NCBI GenBank assembly: GCA_016840405.1
Contig: JAEOSK010000007.1
Span: 1 to 64,000, forward strand
DNA length: 64,000 bases
Source of the DNA: Candidatus Hermodarchaeum yapensis
GTDB taxonomy: Archaea > Asgardarchaeota > Hermodarchaeia > Hermodarchaeales > Hermodarchaeaceae
Reading direction: 5' to 3'
Shown piece after piece: positions 13,177-19,954 of the stretch; position 1 is the stretch's first letter; every line of letters starts with the position of its first letter. The notes under the pieces are model-generated. The model ran no database searches and had not been told where the DNA came from. It worked only from the letters and a program-made list of their open reading frames with translations. A program made the translations under genes and the position numbers.

Positions 13177-13671
13177 TTGACTGATTTCCGCGACAAATTA
13201 CTAGCACTGGATCGGGAGGGTTTAGAAAAGGAGGCTTCGCGACTGGGCATTATTGTAACTGAGTCAATGAGCCGTGCTGAATTAATTACTTCGATTGAGA
13301 AAGCAAATGCCCATCTTGAATTGGGCGACATTCAATCCTTCTGGGAATATCGTGGCCTCATTTCTGGCCTTATATTTGTCACTGTAGCTACTATTGTATT
13401 AGCAATTGATACGTATTTCTTACTAACCGGTCTCTACATCCAAATTTTTGATGTTGCATCATCACCGGTCCCTCCGCTAATTTACTTAGTATGCCGATCC
13501 CTAGGAGGCTTCTTGATTTCCGCTGCACTACTCTCCCTTGTATTCAAAAAAGGTTACCAGAGAATTACTCCGGTTGTTCGAGCTGCCCTAATTATTGGTG
13601 CTGTACTTATCATCATTATTGTTATTGTCTCTGTACCTTTACCAGGTGATTGGTTATCGTTGCATCCCTGA
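13177..13671 (+). CDS. Membrane protein with N-terminal Rho-N/HeH-like helix-extension-helix domain
   Basis: LLALDREGLEKEASRLGI...SMSRAELITSI followed by about 3 TM helices; GGAGGT SD upstream. Confidence 0.65.
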   Translation: MTDFRDKLLALDREGLEKEASRLGIIVTESMSRAELITSIEKANAHLELGDIQSFWEYRGLISGLIFVTVATIVLAIDTYFLLTGLYIQIFDVASSPVPPLIYLVCRSLGGFLISAALLSLVFKKGYQRITPVVRAALIIGAVLIIIIVIVSVPLPGDWLSLHP

Positions 13672-16190: not shown

Positions 16191-16342
16191 CTAGGGCGCA
16201 GTTGGATGTTTTTCCAGAAAAATCTCGAAAAATGGAAAAGAACGCAAAACGCCCAAAAGGACTCGTCCCGACTAAACAATAATAAATAACGTCTTTACTA
16301 AGTTGGGTAAGTTTCCAGCTGACAGGGGAGTCCAAGACTAGA

Positions 16343-17968
16343 ATGTTCCCCATCATATTTCCATTACTCCTAATAGGTTCGGTTATTCTCATGTTCCTGT
16401 GGGCATTTCGCCCCACAATCGAAGGAAGGCTTATTCCCTATATTCTCGACAAACTTTCGGTTCCGGGGGAAATAAAACACACGTCCCTGATTAGTCTAGC
16501 TGACTCGCCACTCGAGCCTGAATATATCTCTCTTACAAACTGGGCAGAATCAGAATTATGGCTTGCTTTCCCACACATCTCAAAAAAGCCCAGTAATATG
16601 CTCCTCAACACGATTGATGAATCCTTGAGTTTGAGACTTGTATTGGGAAACAACACAGATGCTGAGCAAATTAAATCAACTGCCCGTCAGTATAAACGGG
16701 ATGTCGAGATTGTTCGAAGGCCCCGTATGCATTTCAAAGTCTTGTTAACAGGCAATTGTCTTGCCGTGGGATCAGCAAATTTCACTGAAAACGGTCTTGA
16801 TAAGCTCCATGAGTTGGCGGTTATTTCAACTGAACAACGAATGTTAAAGGAAGCCAGAGCATTTCTCTTAGCTTTCAGTGATGAATATTCTGAGTATCCA
16901 AATAGTGAACACACCTATTCACTTTCGTCGAGTTTACCACAAAGATCGAAAAGTGTCTTCGTGAACACCTCCAATGGATTAAATGATTTGGTGTATGCAC
17001 TACTAGGGTCTGCGAAGCAGAATGTGATTCTCGTATCGCCGTACATTACAAATGATGTTGCTGAACATATTCTCCGAGCGATTTCTGATGAAGTGCAAGT
17101 GCGGTTTATCACCTGGGTTGATTGGCGGCAATGGGCGACGGAGCGGTCAGATCCTGAAGCAATTGAGATGTTCTTAGCCAATCGCTTTGTGGTTGACTCT
17201 TGTCCAAACCTCCATGCAAACTGTATTATCGTTGATGGCAAAGCTGCAATTCTTTCATCGCAGAATCTAACCACAGAGAGCTGGAGTTCAAGAGATGAAG
17301 CGGGTATTTATACGAAGAATCCCGAATTGATTAATGCCATTCTCGAACGCATCGAAGGTTGGCCGAAGACTAGCTTCAGAATGGAACTTCTTGAGCGTGA
17401 AATTGAAAGATTCGCCCTGTTCTTAGGAAAAGAATCTGAGCAATTGCCATCTGTTCCCGATCAAGAAGAAGATGATGAATTCCCTGTTGATGTCGGTGAA
17501 GTGATAAGTCCCCCGCTTCTTGGGTTTACACTAATGCCCCAAAGGGAAGTGCTAGAACGAGAGGTTCCCATACCCACAGAAGAACCTGTTCTTGATGAGG
17601 TTCCGGTTCCTGTCACAGAACCTGCTCCGGCTGGCGTTCTTGCTACCGCAGAAGAAGCTCCTCTCGATCAACAACTCCTTGAACGGTTTTGGATGAAGGA
17701 TGTAGTATTCATTGGGAAAAAGCGATTAATGGAATACGTATGGGCGTGCATTACTCAAGTAAAGAAGAATCAATCCGTGACGCTCAAAGCAAGAGGTCAA
17801 CTCATTTATCGCGCAGTCGAAGTTGCTGAACTCTTACGGAACAAATTCGAACCTGATCTGGAAATTGATGAAAAAGCAATTCAAATTGATACCTACTACC
17901 CCAAGGGTAAGAAGAGCAAATGGGGAGGAATAAGTCAAATCGAAATCACTCTCCAGAAGAAAAATTAG
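16343..17968 (+). CDS. N-terminal TM + two PLD-superfamily domains + C-terminal Alba domain
   Basis: MHFKVLL...VGSANFT and VSPYIT...LHANCIIVDG...SSQNLT motifs; acidic/Pro linker; VFIGKK.LMEYV...TLKARGQLIYRAVEVAELLRNKF...ISQIEITL matches Alba. Confidence 0.85.
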   Translation: MFPIIFPLLLIGSVILMFLWAFRPTIEGRLIPYILDKLSVPGEIKHTSLISLADSPLEPEYISLTNWAESELWLAFPHISKKPSNMLLNTIDESLSLRLVLGNNTDAEQIKSTARQYKRDVEIVRRPRMHFKVLLTGNCLAVGSANFTENGLDKLHELAVISTEQRMLKEARAFLLAFSDEYSEYPNSEHTYSLSSSLPQRSKSVFVNTSNGLNDLVYALLGSAKQNVILVSPYITNDVAEHILRAISDEVQVRFITWVDWRQWATERSDPEAIEMFLANRFVVDSCPNLHANCIIVDGKAAILSSQNLTTESWSSRDEAGIYTKNPELINAILERIEGWPKTSFRMELLEREIERFALFLGKESEQLPSVPDQEEDDEFPVDVGEVISPPLLGFTLMPQREVLEREVPIPTEEPVLDEVPVPVTEPAPAGVLATAEEAPLDQQLLERFWMKDVVFIGKKRLMEYVWACITQVKKNQSVTLKARGQLIYRAVEVAELLRNKFEPDLEIDEKAIQIDTYYPKGKKSKWGGISQIEITLQKKN

Positions 17969-18091: not shown

Positions 18092-19954
18092 GTGAACAAT
18101 ATGGGTAAAGCGAACATCGAACTTGATGGTGAGACCCTTACTATAGAGCAAGTAATCTCTGTTGCTCGGAATAGAACCCAAGTCACCCTCTCATCTAAAG
18201 CCAAAGCAAAGGTTGAGGCAGCCGCAAAATTAATTCAACAGTGGGCAGATTCGGGCGCGGTAATCTATGGGGTGACAACAGGATTTGGTCCATTTAGCGA
18301 AGTAATCATCTCAAGTGATAAAGCTCGTGACATCCAACGCAACCTCTTGATTAGTCACGCCGCTGGCGTTGGCTCACCTTTACCTGTTGAAGTAGTTCGA
18401 GCAACGATGTTACTTCGTGCAAATACGCTAGCTAAAGGGTTCTCAGGCATCCAACTCACAACCCTTCAACTCCTACTTGATCTCCTTAACAAAAGAGTTC
18501 ATCCCGTAATTCCCGAAAAAGGATCCGTCGGGGCTAGTGGAGATCTCGCCCCTCTCTCACATATGGCACTCGTTTTAATTGGAGAAGGTCAGGCGGAATT
18601 CAATGGTGAAATACTTCCAGGAGCTAAGGCGCTAGAACGTGCCAAGTTGACACCCATCACTCTTGATCGCAAAGAAGGAATTGCTCTCATCAATGGAACA
18701 CAGGTCATGACTGCCATTGCTGCATTAGCCATTGCTGATGCGAAAGCCCTTGCGGCGAACGCAGAAATCGCTGCGGCTCTATCAATTGAAGCACTCGAAG
18801 GAGTCACGGATGGATTTGATTCACGCATCCAGAAGGTGCGACCGCATGGAGGTCAGAAACACACAGCTAAGAATTTACGGGCATTGCTTAAAGGTAGTGA
18901 TCTGGTTTTGACTTCACGCCAGCGCGCTCAAAATGTCCAAAAAGCATTGAAAGAACTAGGAAAGATTCGCCACGCTGATGATACTACAACGCATGATGCA
19001 CTTCAAATCATTATCCATCATGTTATGCACTTGGTTATCGAATTAGACGAACAAATGGCTGTAGACTCGGGTCCATCCCGAACGAAACTTGAGAAACAGC
19101 GAAATGCAATCATGACGGCGTTGGAAAATCTGGGGGTTTCCAAAGAAGCCATTGATGGGGCAAAAGTCCTAGCGAAAAAAACTATTCGGGTTCAGGATGC
19201 TTATTCCCTTCGATGCACACCCCAAGTCATCGGTGCGGTTCGAGATAGCCTAGAGTATATCTATCAGGTTGTGTCCACGGAAATCAATTCCGCTACGGAT
19301 AACCCTCTTATCTTCCCCGAATCGAATATCTACCTTTCAGGTGGTAACTTCCATGGTCAACCAATAGCCTTAGCGATGGACCTGCTGACAATAGCCATGA
19401 CAAGCATAGGTACAATCGCTGAACGACGAATGGCCCGACTCATCGACCATCATCTCAGTAATGGGCTCCCACTTTTGCTACTCAAACCCACAATAGAAAA
19501 CCGTGGGGTCTATTACGGGCTTGGATTAGCCCAAATTTCTGCAGCCGCCCTTGTCGCAGAATGTAGAACCCTTTCCACACCTGCAAGTGTGCAAACAATA
19601 CCCACCTCAGCCAACCAAGAGGATCATGTCAGTATGGGCACAATTTCCGCACGACAGGCCCGTGAGGTAGTAGACAATGTGGAACACATTATTGCGTTCG
19701 AATTGCTTTGTGCAGTACAAGGCATTGATCTTCGAAAACTCCAACGTGAAATCACGCTAGGACATGGCTCAGATTTGGCCTATCAAATAATTCGGAAAGC
19801 TGTTCCAAGCATTTCAACCTATCACGGTGAGCAACGGAATCGAATAACCCAAGATACTTTTGTTCATCAGGATGTTATCACATTACATCAAATTGTTCAT
19901 AATAGACAATTACTTGACCCGATTATCCATCAAATTCTGGACTTCTCTCTTTGA
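18092..19954 (+). CDS. hutH: Histidine ammonia-lyase
   Basis: YGVTTGFG, GSVGASGDLAPL (MIO), QDAYSLRC, GGNFHG and NQEDHVSMG motifs. Confidence 0.93.
   Translation: MNNMGKANIELDGETLTIEQVISVARNRTQVTLSSKAKAKVEAAAKLIQQWADSGAVIYGVTTGFGPFSEVIISSDKARDIQRNLLISHAAGVGSPLPVEVVRATMLLRANTLAKGFSGIQLTTLQLLLDLLNKRVHPVIPEKGSVGASGDLAPLSHMALVLIGEGQAEFNGEILPGAKALERAKLTPITLDRKEGIALINGTQVMTAIAALAIADAKALAANAEIAAALSIEALEGVTDGFDSRIQKVRPHGGQKHTAKNLRALLKGSDLVLTSRQRAQNVQKALKELGKIRHADDTTTHDALQIIIHHVMHLVIELDEQMAVDSGPSRTKLEKQRNAIMTALENLGVSKEAIDGAKVLAKKTIRVQDAYSLRCTPQVIGAVRDSLEYIYQVVSTEINSATDNPLIFPESNIYLSGGNFHGQPIALAMDLLTIAMTSIGTIAERRMARLIDHHLSNGLPLLLLKPTIENRGVYYGLGLAQISAAALVAECRTLSTPASVQTIPTSANQEDHVSMGTISARQAREVVDNVEHIIAFELLCAVQGIDLRKLQREITLGHGSDLAYQIIRKAVPSISTYHGEQRNRITQDTFVHQDVITLHQIVHNRQLLDPIIHQILDFSL

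What the first reader, a model, noticed from the sequence alone, without database searches (positions are those of the whole stretch)
16343..17968. Membrane-anchored tandem PLD-nuclease fused to the chromatin/RNA-binding protein Alba
Seen: an N-terminal hydrophobic helix; PLD domain 1 with HFK...GSANFT (H and K present, D absent); PLD domain 2 with HAN.IIVD...SSQNLT (K replaced by N); an acidic Pro-rich linker; and a complete Alba domain at ~17693-17965. Known: HKD nucleases (Nuc, BfiI, membrane-anchored Zucchini/PLD6) form one active site from two motifs, and Alba is normally a small stand-alone dimer coating DNA/RNA. I do not know this architecture from described proteins. Inference: Alba could heterodimerise with chromatin Alba and bring nucleic acid to a membrane-bound nuclease or degenerate scaffold.
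Basis: partly seen in the sequence, partly recalled or inferred. Interest (0 to 1): 0.8.

Follow-up and report, generated by a model that had tools for sequence, protein, structure and literature searches.

The report
Membrane-anchored degenerate PLD nuclease fused to Alba
One genus of Asgard archaea carries a real, selected gene that joins a membrane anchor, two phospholipase-D-type nuclease domains with broken catalytic motifs, and a complete Alba nucleic-acid-binding domain; it is most likely a former defence nuclease reused as a membrane tether for DNA or RNA, and many species have since lost it.

Summary
Window 16343-17968(+) encodes a 541-aa protein with five parts:
- one N-terminal hydrophobic helix (residues 1-22);
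- PLDc_2 domain 1, with HFK...GSAN;
- PLDc_2 domain 2, with HAN(x)4D...SSQN, where Lys is replaced by Asn;
- a disordered acidic, Pro-rich linker;
- a full-length Alba domain.

The fusion is not an assembly artefact. I found 23 full-length homologues at 45-100% identity from independent assemblies. dN/dS is 0.12-0.16 overall, 0.04-0.07 in Alba and 0-0.08 in the anchor.

The catalytic site is degenerate across the family. Motif 2 always has Asn for Lys, and its His is kept in only 10 of 20 members. Motif 1 drifts in half of the family. In contrast, ten distant relatives at about 25-30% identity keep two intact HxK motifs and lack the anchor. Two of these also carry Alba. The two whose surroundings show such neighbours lie beside HerA, one of them also beside NurA, DpdA and VirD4.

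Among about 300 Asgard genomes the fusion was found only in the window's own genus (8 of 15). It sits between a permease gene and a histidine ammonia-lyase gene. Five genomes of the genus lack it there, and two of those keep stop-riddled remnants.

Best reading: an exapted defence-type PLD nuclease, now a largely non-catalytic, cytoplasm-facing membrane tether for nucleic acid. Residual nuclease activity in the window's own clade is not excluded. No description was found in the literature searched.

The parts
16274..16289 (+). A/T-rich TATA-like box (AAACAATAATAAATAA), about 55-70 nt upstream of the ATG
   Evidence: The block is conserved in upstream regions of orthologues down to 45% protein identity (alignment A3). 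Its role as a promoter is inferred.
16311..16318 (+). Conserved (A/G)TTTCCAG block, a possible transcription start or leader element
   Evidence: TTTCCAG is invariant in all 5 aligned upstream regions. Its function is not tested.
16325..16330 (+). Shine-Dalgarno-like GGGGAG, 12 nt before the ATG at 16343
   Evidence: Sequence. The GG.GA core is conserved. It supports Met1 rather than Met17 as the start.
16343..17968 (+). Whole coding sequence, 541 aa plus stop
   Evidence: There are 23 full-length homologues, and dN/dS is 0.12-0.16.
16343..16408 (+). N-terminal hydrophobic helix (residues 1-22), a predicted single membrane anchor
   Evidence: The KD19 mean is 2.6, and it is the only such segment. 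The consensus MFPxxAxxLIIGSVILMxLWEF is conserved. The AF2 model has a helix at 5-21. dN/dS is 0-0.08 for residues 1-45. There is no K or R before it and 1-3 K/R in the 15 residues after it.
16478..16912 (+). PLD-like domain 1 (about residues 46-190), the least conserved folded part
   Evidence: Pfam PLDc_2. DpdK-type models match residues 97-182. Only 8 of 145 columns are invariant in the family.
16730..16780 (+). HKD motif 1: H130-F-K132 ... G143-S-A-N146, with Asp replaced by Gly137
   Evidence: His is kept in 17 of 20 members and Lys in 15 of 20. The Asn of GSxN is lost in most of clade B.
16913..17437 (+). PLD-like domain 2 (about residues 191-365)
   Evidence: Best Pfam PLDc_2 stretch is 219-336. 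DrmC models match 216-335. pLDDT is 82-96. 40 of 175 columns are invariant.
17213..17266 (+). Degenerate HKD motif 2: H291-A-N293-CIIV-D298 ... S305-S-Q-N308
   Evidence: N293 and D298 are invariant in 20 of 20 members. Position 291 is H in 10, E in 4, Y in 2, N in 2, and C and M in one each.
17438..17683 (+). Disordered acidic, Pro-rich linker (residues 366-447)
   Evidence: pLDDT is 27-40. dN/dS is 0.46-0.55. Length varies by about 24 residues between clades.
17510..17527 (+). Conserved short linear motif PPLLGF (residues 390-395) inside the linker
   Evidence: P390, L393 and F395 are invariant, and L392 and G394 are at least 90% conserved, in an otherwise variable linker. Its partner is unknown.
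17684..17965 (+). Complete Alba domain (residues 448-541)
   Evidence: Pfam Alba scores 47.2 bits, TIGR00285 E 8.5e-21 and PDB 1NH9 E 1.5e-15 over its whole length. The AF2 model shows a beta-alpha-beta-alpha-beta-beta order. 36 of 94 columns are invariant. dN/dS is 0.04-0.07.

Best explanation
The gene encodes a single-pass membrane protein with, most likely, the N-terminus outside and the bulk in the cytoplasm. Its cytoplasmic part is a tandem PLD-fold module descended from DrmC/DpdK/Nuc-type defence or mobile-element nucleases, followed by a flexible acidic linker and a canonical Alba domain.

In this lineage the composite HKD active site has been disabled. The motif-2 Lys is always Asn, and both catalytic His residues vary across the family.

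The protein therefore most likely works without catalysis, or with very weak catalysis. The Alba domain dimerises, with itself or with the cell's chromatin Alba, and grips DNA or RNA. The PLD module is kept as a scaffold or phosphate-binding surface. The N-terminal helix fixes the complex to the cytoplasmic membrane.

Shown here: the architecture, its conservation, purifying selection, motif decay, restriction to one genus, and repeated loss.

Inferred: topology, dimerisation, nucleic-acid binding, loss of activity, and the tethering role.
For: - Architecture: Pfam and NCBIfam matches. The AF2 model has PLD domains at pLDDT 80-96. Foldseek matches two-domain PLDs such as 7e0m, vaccinia F13, PssA and PLD3/4 at E 1e-13 to 1e-15.
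- Nuclease-type ancestry: the best PADLOC and NCBIfam matches are DrmC (4e-17), DpdK (4.5e-11), MkoB and NucT.
- Contrast with relatives: ten distant relatives all carry two complete HxK(x)4[D/E]...SxN motifs and no strongly hydrophobic N-terminus. P0025 and P0026 also end in Alba. P0025 lies beside VirD4/TraG, a DNA methylase, HerA, NurA and DpdA. The G009 relative lies beside a HerA-like ATPase.
- Decay of the site in the family: N293 in 20 of 20, H291 in 10 of 20, H130 in 17 of 20, K132 in 15 of 20, and GSxN of motif 1 lost in clade B. PLD1 has only 8 of 145 invariant columns.
- The protein is still under selection: dN/dS is 0.10-0.13 in the PLD domains, 0.04-0.07 in Alba and 0-0.08 in the anchor.
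- Alba features: GKK(R) and KARG are kept and invariant. The invariant residues 485-496, 513-517 and 531-535 coincide with the modelled dimer interface.
- Complex model with the genome's own Alba: ipSAE 0.84 in all three runs, best control 0.00. That mark was reached by 58 of 80 solved complexes and 2 of 110 mismatched pairs. The runs agree in at least 94% of contacts, and the partner's pLDDT is at least 82. This may be recall of solved Alba dimers.
- Anchor: one hydrophobic segment, with no K/R before it and 1-3 after it in all full-length members.
Against: - In the window's own clade (9 sequences, at least 54% pairwise identity) both His, K132 and both SxN elements are kept, apart from one H130N. 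Residual activity with Asn in place of one Lys therefore cannot be excluded.
- No binding, activity, topology or expression data exist.
- The charge bias around the anchor is weak, with net charge from -2 to +2 after the helix.
- The gene is dispensable. It is absent or decayed at the syntenic site in all 5 genomes of the genus that lack it and were examined, so any tethering role is not a core cellular function.
- Purifying selection on PLD2 motif residues (N293, D298, SSQN) could mean that a ligand-binding or catalytic pocket of unknown kind persists.
Confidence: 0.5

Rival explanations
1. It is still an active, membrane-bound nuclease, at least in the window's clade. Alba delivers DNA or RNA to a composite site built from HxK...GSxN (domain 1) and HxN(x)4D...SSxN (domain 2). 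One possible role is a defence enzyme that attacks incoming foreign nucleic acid at the membrane.
For: - In clade A, H130 is kept in 8 of 9 members, and K132, N146, H291, D298 and SSQN in 9 of 9.
- Its ancestry lies among defence-type PLD nucleases.
- Patchy presence within a genus, with decaying remnants, is typical of defence genes.
- From general knowledge, anchored PLD nucleases exist, such as PLD3/4 and Zucchini. The PLD3/4 folds are among the Foldseek hits.
Against: - The motif-2 Lys is Asn in every member. From published PLD mutagenesis (general knowledge), both Lys residues are normally required.
- Clade B orthologues have the same anchor, Alba domain and synteny but lack the motif-2 His in 10 of 11 members, and they are still intact ORFs. 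The shared function therefore does not need catalysis.
- One clade A member has H130N.
- The gene is not in a defence island. It lies between a permease gene and a hut-pathway gene.
Confidence: 0.28
2. It is a functional component of the adjacent membrane module (small HeH/Rho_N-like membrane protein, ABC ATPase, 552-aa permease), which would handle nucleic acid at or across the membrane.
For: - Same strand and order in all orthologous loci seen.
- The small upstream protein gives weak Rho_N/SAP matches in 3 of 3 orthologues, at E 0.002-0.066 and below the cut-off.
Against: - The cluster from the 78-aa ORF through the HeH-like membrane protein, ABC ATPase and permease to HAL is intact in the sister genus without PLD-Alba. 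In five genomes of the same genus that lack PLD-Alba, the permease-HAL junction, the part examined, is likewise retained.
- In 2 of 3 sister-genus loci the same gap holds an unrelated gene on the opposite strand, so the site is an insertion spot.
- The fusion has its own conserved upstream region of about 150 nt, with a TATA-like box and an SD-like element.
Confidence: 0.1
3. The hydrophobic N-terminus is a signal anchor that places PLD-Alba outside the cell, where it binds or degrades extracellular DNA.
For: - A single N-terminal hydrophobic segment could in principle act as a signal anchor.
- Two conserved Cys residues (C287, C294) flank the degenerate His and could form a disulfide outside the cell.
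- The net charge after the helix is weak.
Against: - There is no positively charged n-region before the helix: 0 K/R in all members that start at MFP.
- The hydrophobic stretch is about 20-22 residues, which is long for a cleaved signal peptide.
- K/R residues lie only on the C-terminal side. By the positive-inside rule (general knowledge) this favours the C-terminus inside.
- Alba and all relatives of the PLD module are intracellular proteins.
Confidence: 0.06
4. It is a lipid-directed PLD-family enzyme of the cardiolipin or phosphatidylserine synthase type, and its Alba domain has a secondary role.
For: - An N-terminal membrane helix followed by two PLD domains is the layout of bacterial cardiolipin synthases (general knowledge).
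- PssA structures are among the Foldseek hits, at TM 0.51-0.54.
Against: - Sequence models place it with nucleases (DrmC, DpdK, NucT, NgoFVII). The Pss model scores 15.9 bits against a cut-off of 314.
- The catalytic residues are degenerate.
- Relatives sit beside DNA-handling genes.
Confidence: 0.04

Closest known systems
DISARM DrmC, DpdK, and Nuc/NucT-type PLD nucleases
   Same: These are the best sequence-model matches to both PLD domains: DrmC 4e-17, DpdK 4.5e-11, NucT 8e-5. An intact relative, P0025, lies next to DpdA and HerA-NurA.
   Different: - Scores are far below the curated cut-offs (46.5 against 133 bits; 45.8 against 100 bits).
- This protein has two fused domains rather than a single-HKD homodimer.
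- The motif-2 Lys is lost and the His residues vary.
- It has a membrane anchor and Alba, and no DISARM or Dpd partner genes in the window.
Unanchored tandem-PLD-Alba proteins from metagenomes (P0025, P0026)
   Same: They have the same domain order, PLD-PLD-acidic linker-Alba. They align colinearly over residues 47-539 at 28% identity, with E 1.7e-41 and 2.1e-36.
   Different: - Both HxK motifs are intact.
- They have no hydrophobic N-terminus. P0025 has a weak TrmB-type wHTH instead.
- P0025 lies in mobile-element or defence surroundings; P0026's neighbours give no clear defence signal.
- Their Alba domains are only 34-37% identical to this one, less than the host's own Alba at 46%. A single origin of the fusion is therefore plausible but not shown.
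Archaeal chromatin/RNA-binding Alba (Sso10b, Mja Alba 1NH9)
   Same: The domain is full length, about 45-50% identical to the two solved Albas aligned and to the nearest metagenomic Albas, with GKK and KARG basic motifs. It is predicted to pair through the canonical interface.
   Different: - It is fused to the C-terminus of a 450-aa membrane protein rather than being a stand-alone protein of about 10 kDa.
- It scores below the NCBIfam equivalog cut-off (73.8 against 88.25 bits).
- The beta3-beta4 arm has a family-specific YYPxGKxxKWGGIS sequence.
Membrane-anchored PLD-family nucleases: PLD3/PLD4 and Zucchini/PLD6
   Same: They share an N-terminal single membrane helix followed by PLD domain(s) that act on nucleic acid (general knowledge). 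PLD3/4 structures are among the top Foldseek hits, at TM about 0.55.
   Different: - Those enzymes keep intact HKD motifs and are active.
- PLD3/4 face the lumen.
- None carries Alba.
- Sequence identity is only 10-15%.
Catalytically impaired PLD-fold proteins: vaccinia F13 and the FAM83 pseudo-PLD domain
   Same: These are PLD-fold proteins with incomplete HKD motifs that serve as membrane-associated or scaffold proteins (general knowledge). F13 structures are among the top Foldseek hits, at E about 4e-14 and TM 0.61-0.67.
   Different: There is no sequence kinship beyond the fold. F13 is attached by lipidation rather than by a membrane helix. None has a nucleic-acid-binding fusion partner.

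Membership tests
PLD / HKD superfamily (PF13091 PLDc_2) | Two PLD-fold domains forming a pseudo-dimeric module | tested here: met
   PLDc_2 matches in two stretches, 79.7 bits against a cut-off of 27. The AF2 model has pLDDT 80-96 in these domains. Foldseek matches two-domain PLDs at E 1e-13 to 1e-15 over 340-430 columns.
PLD / HKD superfamily (PF13091 PLDc_2) | Complete HxK(x)4D(x)6G(S/T)xN motif in each domain | tested here: not met
   Motif 1 has H, K and GSAN present but Gly at the Asp position. Motif 2 has Asn in place of Lys, in 20 of 20 family members.
PLD / HKD superfamily (PF13091 PLDc_2) | Catalytic His residues conserved among orthologues | tested here: not met
   H130 is kept in 17 of 20 members and H291 in 10 of 20 (otherwise E, Y, N, C or M). 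Ten distant relatives keep both.
PLD / HKD superfamily (PF13091 PLDc_2) | Phosphodiesterase activity | not testable with these tools
   This needs an enzyme assay with His mutants.
Alba (PF01918) | Match to the family HMM above the gathering score | tested here: met
   47.2 bits against a cut-off of 25, E 1.9e-12.
Alba (PF01918) | Full-length beta-alpha-beta-alpha-beta-beta fold | tested here: met
   The AF2 model has strands at 454-456, 478-484, 513-517 and 530-539, and helices at 462-476 and 485-502. The domain aligns to residues 1-87 of 87 of 1NH9.
Alba (PF01918) | Basic nucleic-acid-binding residues (GKK loop, KARG) | tested here: met
   G458, K460, A483, R484 and G485 are invariant, and K459 and R461 are at least 90% conserved. 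Their role is taken from published Alba structures (general knowledge).
Alba (PF01918) | Dimer formation | tested here: inconclusive
   The complex model with the genome's own Alba gives ipSAE 0.84 against a best control of 0.00. That mark was reached by 58 of 80 solved complexes and 2 of 110 mismatched pairs. Contact agreement is at least 94% and the partner's pLDDT at least 82. This is a prediction only and may be recall of solved Alba dimers.
Alba equivalog (NCBIfam TIGR00285, chromatin Alba) | Score above the equivalog cut-off; small stand-alone protein | tested here: not met
   73.8 bits against a cut-off of 88.25. The domain is the C-terminus of a 541-aa protein. The genome has a separate stand-alone Alba.
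DISARM DrmC / Dpd DpdK | Score above the curated cut-off | tested here: not met
   DrmC 46.5 bits against 133; DpdK 45.8 bits against 100.
DISARM DrmC / Dpd DpdK | Neighbouring system genes (drmA/B/MTase, or dpdA-J) | tested here: not met
   The neighbours in the window are an ABC ATPase, a permease, HAL and a surface protein. The same holds in orthologous loci. Only the distant relative P0025 lies near DpdA.
Cardiolipin / phosphatidylserine synthase (lipid PLDs) | Match to the family model | tested here: not met
   The PssA model PRK09428 scores 15.9 bits against a cut-off of 314. There is fold similarity only.

The most novel reading that the evidence does not exclude
The protein is a chromatin-to-membrane or RNA-to-membrane tether of an Asgard archaeon. 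Its Alba domain would co-assemble with the cell's Lys-tailed chromatin Alba on DNA or RNA. The dead PLD module and the N-terminal helix would pin that nucleoprotein to the cytoplasmic membrane. This would be a prokaryotic counterpart of eukaryotic membrane-chromatin tethers, built from a domesticated defence nuclease.
Probability: 0.15. Interest if true: 0.8.

Novelty: new variant of a known kind. Interest (0 to 1): 0.5.

Why it matters
Alba is one of the most widespread archaeal chromatin and RNA-binding proteins, and it is almost always a small free dimer. A version that is selected, membrane-anchored and fused to a nuclease-derived domain has not been described in the literature I could search.

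It offers two things. First, it is a clear case of a defence or mobile-element nuclease being captured, disabled and given a new location. Intact relatives, decayed catalytic motifs and pseudogene remnants are all visible for comparison. Second, it is a candidate for linking nucleic acid to the membrane in Asgard archaea, the closest known relatives of eukaryotes.

Its confinement to one genus and its repeated loss limit how general any role can be.

Tried and rejected
- Assembly artefact: rejected. There are 23 full-length homologues from NCBI, JGI, ENA and Logan assemblies, on contigs up to 232 kb.
- Start at Met17 (the 525-aa gene calls): rejected. The MFP... start and the hydrophobic helix are conserved. 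Codons 1-45 show 5.5-7.5 synonymous against 0-1.5 non-synonymous changes. An SD-like GGGGAG lies 12 nt before Met1.
- Functional module with the ABC cluster: judged unlikely.
- PDB sequence search with the PLD part (residues 40-365): no hit at E <= 0.01.
- Homologue search with P0025: returned only itself.
- Search with the Alba region among proteins of 297-947 aa: returned only this family.
- ESM Atlas feature search: only generic PLD clusters at scores of 0.80 or less, no PLD-Alba cluster.
- Literature: four searches found no PLD-Alba fusion. One paper (PMC11649824) shows that plant ALBA domains can be engaged by a short linear motif. This is only a loose parallel to the PPLLGF motif here and was not pursued.
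- Origin of the Alba domain: pairwise identities (46% to the host Alba, 34-37% to the P0025/P0026 Alba domains) do not settle whether the fusion arose once.
Full report
**1. What is there**

Window 16343-17968(+) is an uninterrupted ORF of 541 codons.
- Pfam finds two PLDc_2 stretches (E 2.2e-22) and an Alba domain (E 1.9e-12). Both are well above their gathering scores.
- NCBIfam Alba models cover residues 451-540 (E 8.5e-21) but stay below the equivalog cut-off.
- Against the PDB, residues 451-539 align to the whole of M. jannaschii Alba 1NH9 (E 1.5e-15), and ten other solved Albas follow.
- The only strongly hydrophobic segment is residues 1-22, with a Kyte-Doolittle 19-residue mean of 2.6.
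- An AF2 model built on a 20-sequence alignment has mean pLDDT 73.6. It shows an N-terminal helix at 5-21, two confident alpha/beta domains (pLDDT 80-96), a disordered stretch at 365-452 (pLDDT 27-40) and a beta-alpha-beta-alpha-beta-beta Alba fold.
- Foldseek matches the model to two-domain PLD-family structures: 7e0m, vaccinia F13, PssA and PLD3/PLD4, at E 1e-13 to 1e-15.

**2. It is a real, selected gene and not an artefact**

A search of the 5.8-billion-protein collection returned 23 full-length proteins at 45-100% identity. All carry PF13091 plus PF01918, and they come from independent NCBI, JGI, ENA and Logan assemblies. Two are labelled Promethearchaeota, that is, Asgard archaea.

Nei-Gojobori dN/dS between the window gene and two orthologues at 91-92% identity gives these values:

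| Region | dN/dS |
|---|---|
| whole gene | 0.12-0.16 |
| residues 1-45 | 0-0.08 |
| each PLD domain | 0.10-0.13 |
| linker | 0.46-0.55 |
| Alba | 0.04-0.07 |

The start at Met1 (MFP...) is supported in three ways. The hydrophobic helix is conserved. Codons 1-45 are under selection. The upstream region is conserved and carries a TATA-like box, an invariant TTTCCAG block and a GGGGAG element 12 nt before the ATG. The 525-aa gene calls that start at Met17 would cut the helix in half.

**3. The catalytic site is degenerate**

In the 20-sequence alignment:
- Motif 2 reads x-A-N-C-I-I-V-D ... S-S-Q-N. Asn replaces the canonical Lys in all 20 sequences. The His position is H in 10, E in 4, Y in 2, N in 2, and C and M in one each.
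- In motif 1, His is kept in 17 of 20 and Lys in 15 of 20. The GSxN element has drifted in most of the second clade.

The family splits into two clades, each with about 64% mean identity within and 50% between:
- Clade A contains the window gene. It keeps both His, K132 and both SxN elements, except for one H130N.
- Clade B has lost the motif-2 His in 10 of 11 members. It still keeps the anchor, the linker motif, the Alba domain and the synteny.

Invariant columns by region are 8 of 145 in PLD1, 40 of 175 in PLD2, 36 of 94 in Alba and 9 of 22 in the anchor. The domain with the better-looking HKD motif is therefore the least constrained part of the folded protein.

By contrast, all ten more distant relatives that I examined carry two complete HxK(x)4[D/E]...SxN motifs and no strongly hydrophobic N-terminus. 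These are P0025-P0032, P0069 and P0073, at roughly 25-30% identity.

**4. Where it came from**

The exhaustive phmmer search found, beyond the family itself, two proteins with the same PLD-PLD-linker-Alba order. These are P0025 (E 1.7e-41) and P0026 (E 2.1e-36). It also found several proteins with the same tandem PLD core and other C-terminal domains.
- P0025 lies between a VirD4/TraG-type coupling protein, an N6/N4 DNA methylase, HerA (DUF87), NurA and a DpdA-like transglycosylase.
- The one relative found in another Asgard family (G009) is of the type with a different C-terminal domain and lies beside a HerA-like ATPase.
- The best sequence models for the PLD domains are DrmC, DpdK, MkoB and NucT. 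All are defence or nuclease types, and all score below their curated cut-offs.

The core is therefore a nuclease-type PLD module that circulates in mobile-element or defence surroundings.

The fusion's Alba domain is 46% identical to the genome's own Alba and 34-37% identical to the Alba domains of P0025 and P0026. Whether the fusion arose once is left open.

**5. Distribution and loss**

In 301 genomes sampled across the phylum, the full protein was found only in the window's own GTDB genus. It is present in 8 of 15 genomes including the window's, at 72-91% completeness.

In every locus that carries it, it lies between a 550-aa polytopic membrane protein and a histidine ammonia-lyase gene.

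I examined that junction in five genomes of the genus that lack it:
- Three have a gap of 35-55 nt.
- One (G060) holds an Alba-only relic with three in-frame stops and the first ~420 codons deleted.
- One (G073) keeps only the last ~33 codons, with a stop.

In the sister genus, the cluster from the 78-aa ORF through the small membrane protein, ABC ATPase and permease to HAL is intact without the fusion. In two of three loci the same gap holds an unrelated 270-aa gene on the other strand.

The fusion was thus inserted into an older cluster at about the base of the genus, or lost in the sister genus, and it has since been deleted several times.

**6. The Alba domain and pairing**

The GKK(R) loop and the KARG element are invariant or nearly so. 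The genome has one other Alba gene, a 146-aa protein with a Lys/Glu/Pro/Ala-rich N-terminal tail.

I modelled that protein's Alba domain together with residues 446-541 of the fusion:
- ipSAE was 0.84 in all three runs, against a best control of 0.00.
- That mark was reached by 58 of 80 solved complexes and 2 of 110 mismatched pairs.
- The runs agree in at least 94% of contacts, and the partner's pLDDT is at least 82.
- The interface residues (485-489, 492-496, 513-517, 531-535) coincide with invariant columns of the family.

Alba homo- and heterodimers have been solved, so this pass may be recall. It shows that the canonical interface is kept. It does not show that the two proteins bind, and it does not separate a heterodimer from a homodimer.

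**7. Topology**

Members that start at MFP have no Lys or Arg before the helix and 1-3 within 15 residues after it. The hydrophobic stretch is about 20-22 residues long and has no charged n-region. By the positive-inside rule (general knowledge), this favours the N-terminus outside and the C-terminus inside. That orientation fits a nucleic-acid-binding domain. The net charge bias is weak, and no dedicated predictor was available, so this step is inference.

**8. Most likely mechanism**

I read the protein as an exapted defence-type PLD nuclease. It acquired a membrane helix, lost the canonical active site, and is retained in some species as a cytoplasm-facing membrane tether for DNA or RNA. 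Binding would go through a dimeric Alba domain, and the PLD module would serve as a scaffold or residual phosphate-binding surface. My confidence is about 0.5.

The main rival, at about 0.28, is that clade A proteins, including the window's, still cut nucleic acid at the membrane. Smaller rivals are membership of the ABC module, an extracellular orientation, and a lipid substrate.

A conserved PPLLGF motif in the otherwise free-drifting linker (P390, L393 and F395 invariant) points to an unidentified partner or an intramolecular contact.

**9. Novelty and score**

Both domains and the idea of dead PLD scaffolds are known. The combination of a membrane anchor, a tandem degenerate PLD module and Alba was not found in four literature searches. 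It was also not found in any large Atlas cluster.

This is a new variant of known kinds. It is rare and confined to one genus, plus two unanchored singletons. It is dispensable and has no experimental handle yet. I set interest at 0.5. It would be higher if the chromatin-membrane tether reading proved true in an Asgard archaeon.

Noticed in passing
L001:1426-1866 (-) = G000 contig C67, about 52.6 kb: The genome's only other Alba gene encodes a 146-aa protein. It has a ~55-residue Lys/Glu/Pro/Ala-rich N-terminal tail (KAKEPKAKEPKAEKVKAEEPKAEK...) ahead of a canonical Alba domain. This resembles a histone-tail or H1-like extension. Homologues P0035 and P0038 (73-78% identity) share it.
   Followed up: partly
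L013:5264-5626 (-) (G060) and L014:5098-5196 (-) (G073): Pseudogene relics of the fusion lie at the syntenic permease|HAL junction. One is an Alba-only remnant with three in-frame stops. The other is a 33-codon tail with a stop. They are direct evidence of repeated gene loss within the genus.
   Followed up: yes
L021:3124-3951 (+) and L023:3154-3963 (+) (sister genus): An unrelated ~270-aa ORF on the opposite strand occupies the same permease|HAL gap in 2 of 3 sister-genus loci. The gap appears to be a recurrent insertion site. The ORF was not scanned against family models.
   Followed up: no
window 13177-13671 (+): This 164-aa protein has a polar N-terminal ~50 residues followed by hydrophobic segments. 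The N-terminal piece gives sub-threshold Rho_N/SAP matches in 3 of 3 orthologues (E 0.002-0.066, cut-off 24.9 bits).
   Followed up: partly
window 17510-17527 (+), residues 390-395: An invariant PPLLGF core lies inside an otherwise fast-evolving disordered linker. Distant relatives have a different conserved hydrophobic patch (YPxHxGxxLxL) at the equivalent place after an acidic run. The partner is unknown.
   Followed up: partly
L006 (JGI metagenome contig), L018 (G009 contig C280): Tandem-PLD nucleases with intact HKD motifs lie next to HerA-type ATPases. In L006 they also lie next to NurA, a DpdA-like gene, a DNA methylase and VirD4/TraG. Several of these PLD proteins (P0028-P0031) share an uncharacterised ~110-aa C-terminal domain in place of Alba.
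   Followed up: partly
window 18092-19954 (+): The histidine/aromatic ammonia-lyase is 620 aa. The Pfam model matches in two stretches, the first ending at residue 285 (profile position 270 of 466). This implies an insertion of roughly 90 residues, which the 617-621-aa orthologues share.
   Followed up: no
window 16311-16318 (+) and orthologous upstream regions (A3): An invariant TTTCCAG block lies about 25 nt upstream of the start codon. It is conserved in orthologues down to 45% protein identity. It could be a transcription start or a regulatory site.
   Followed up: partly
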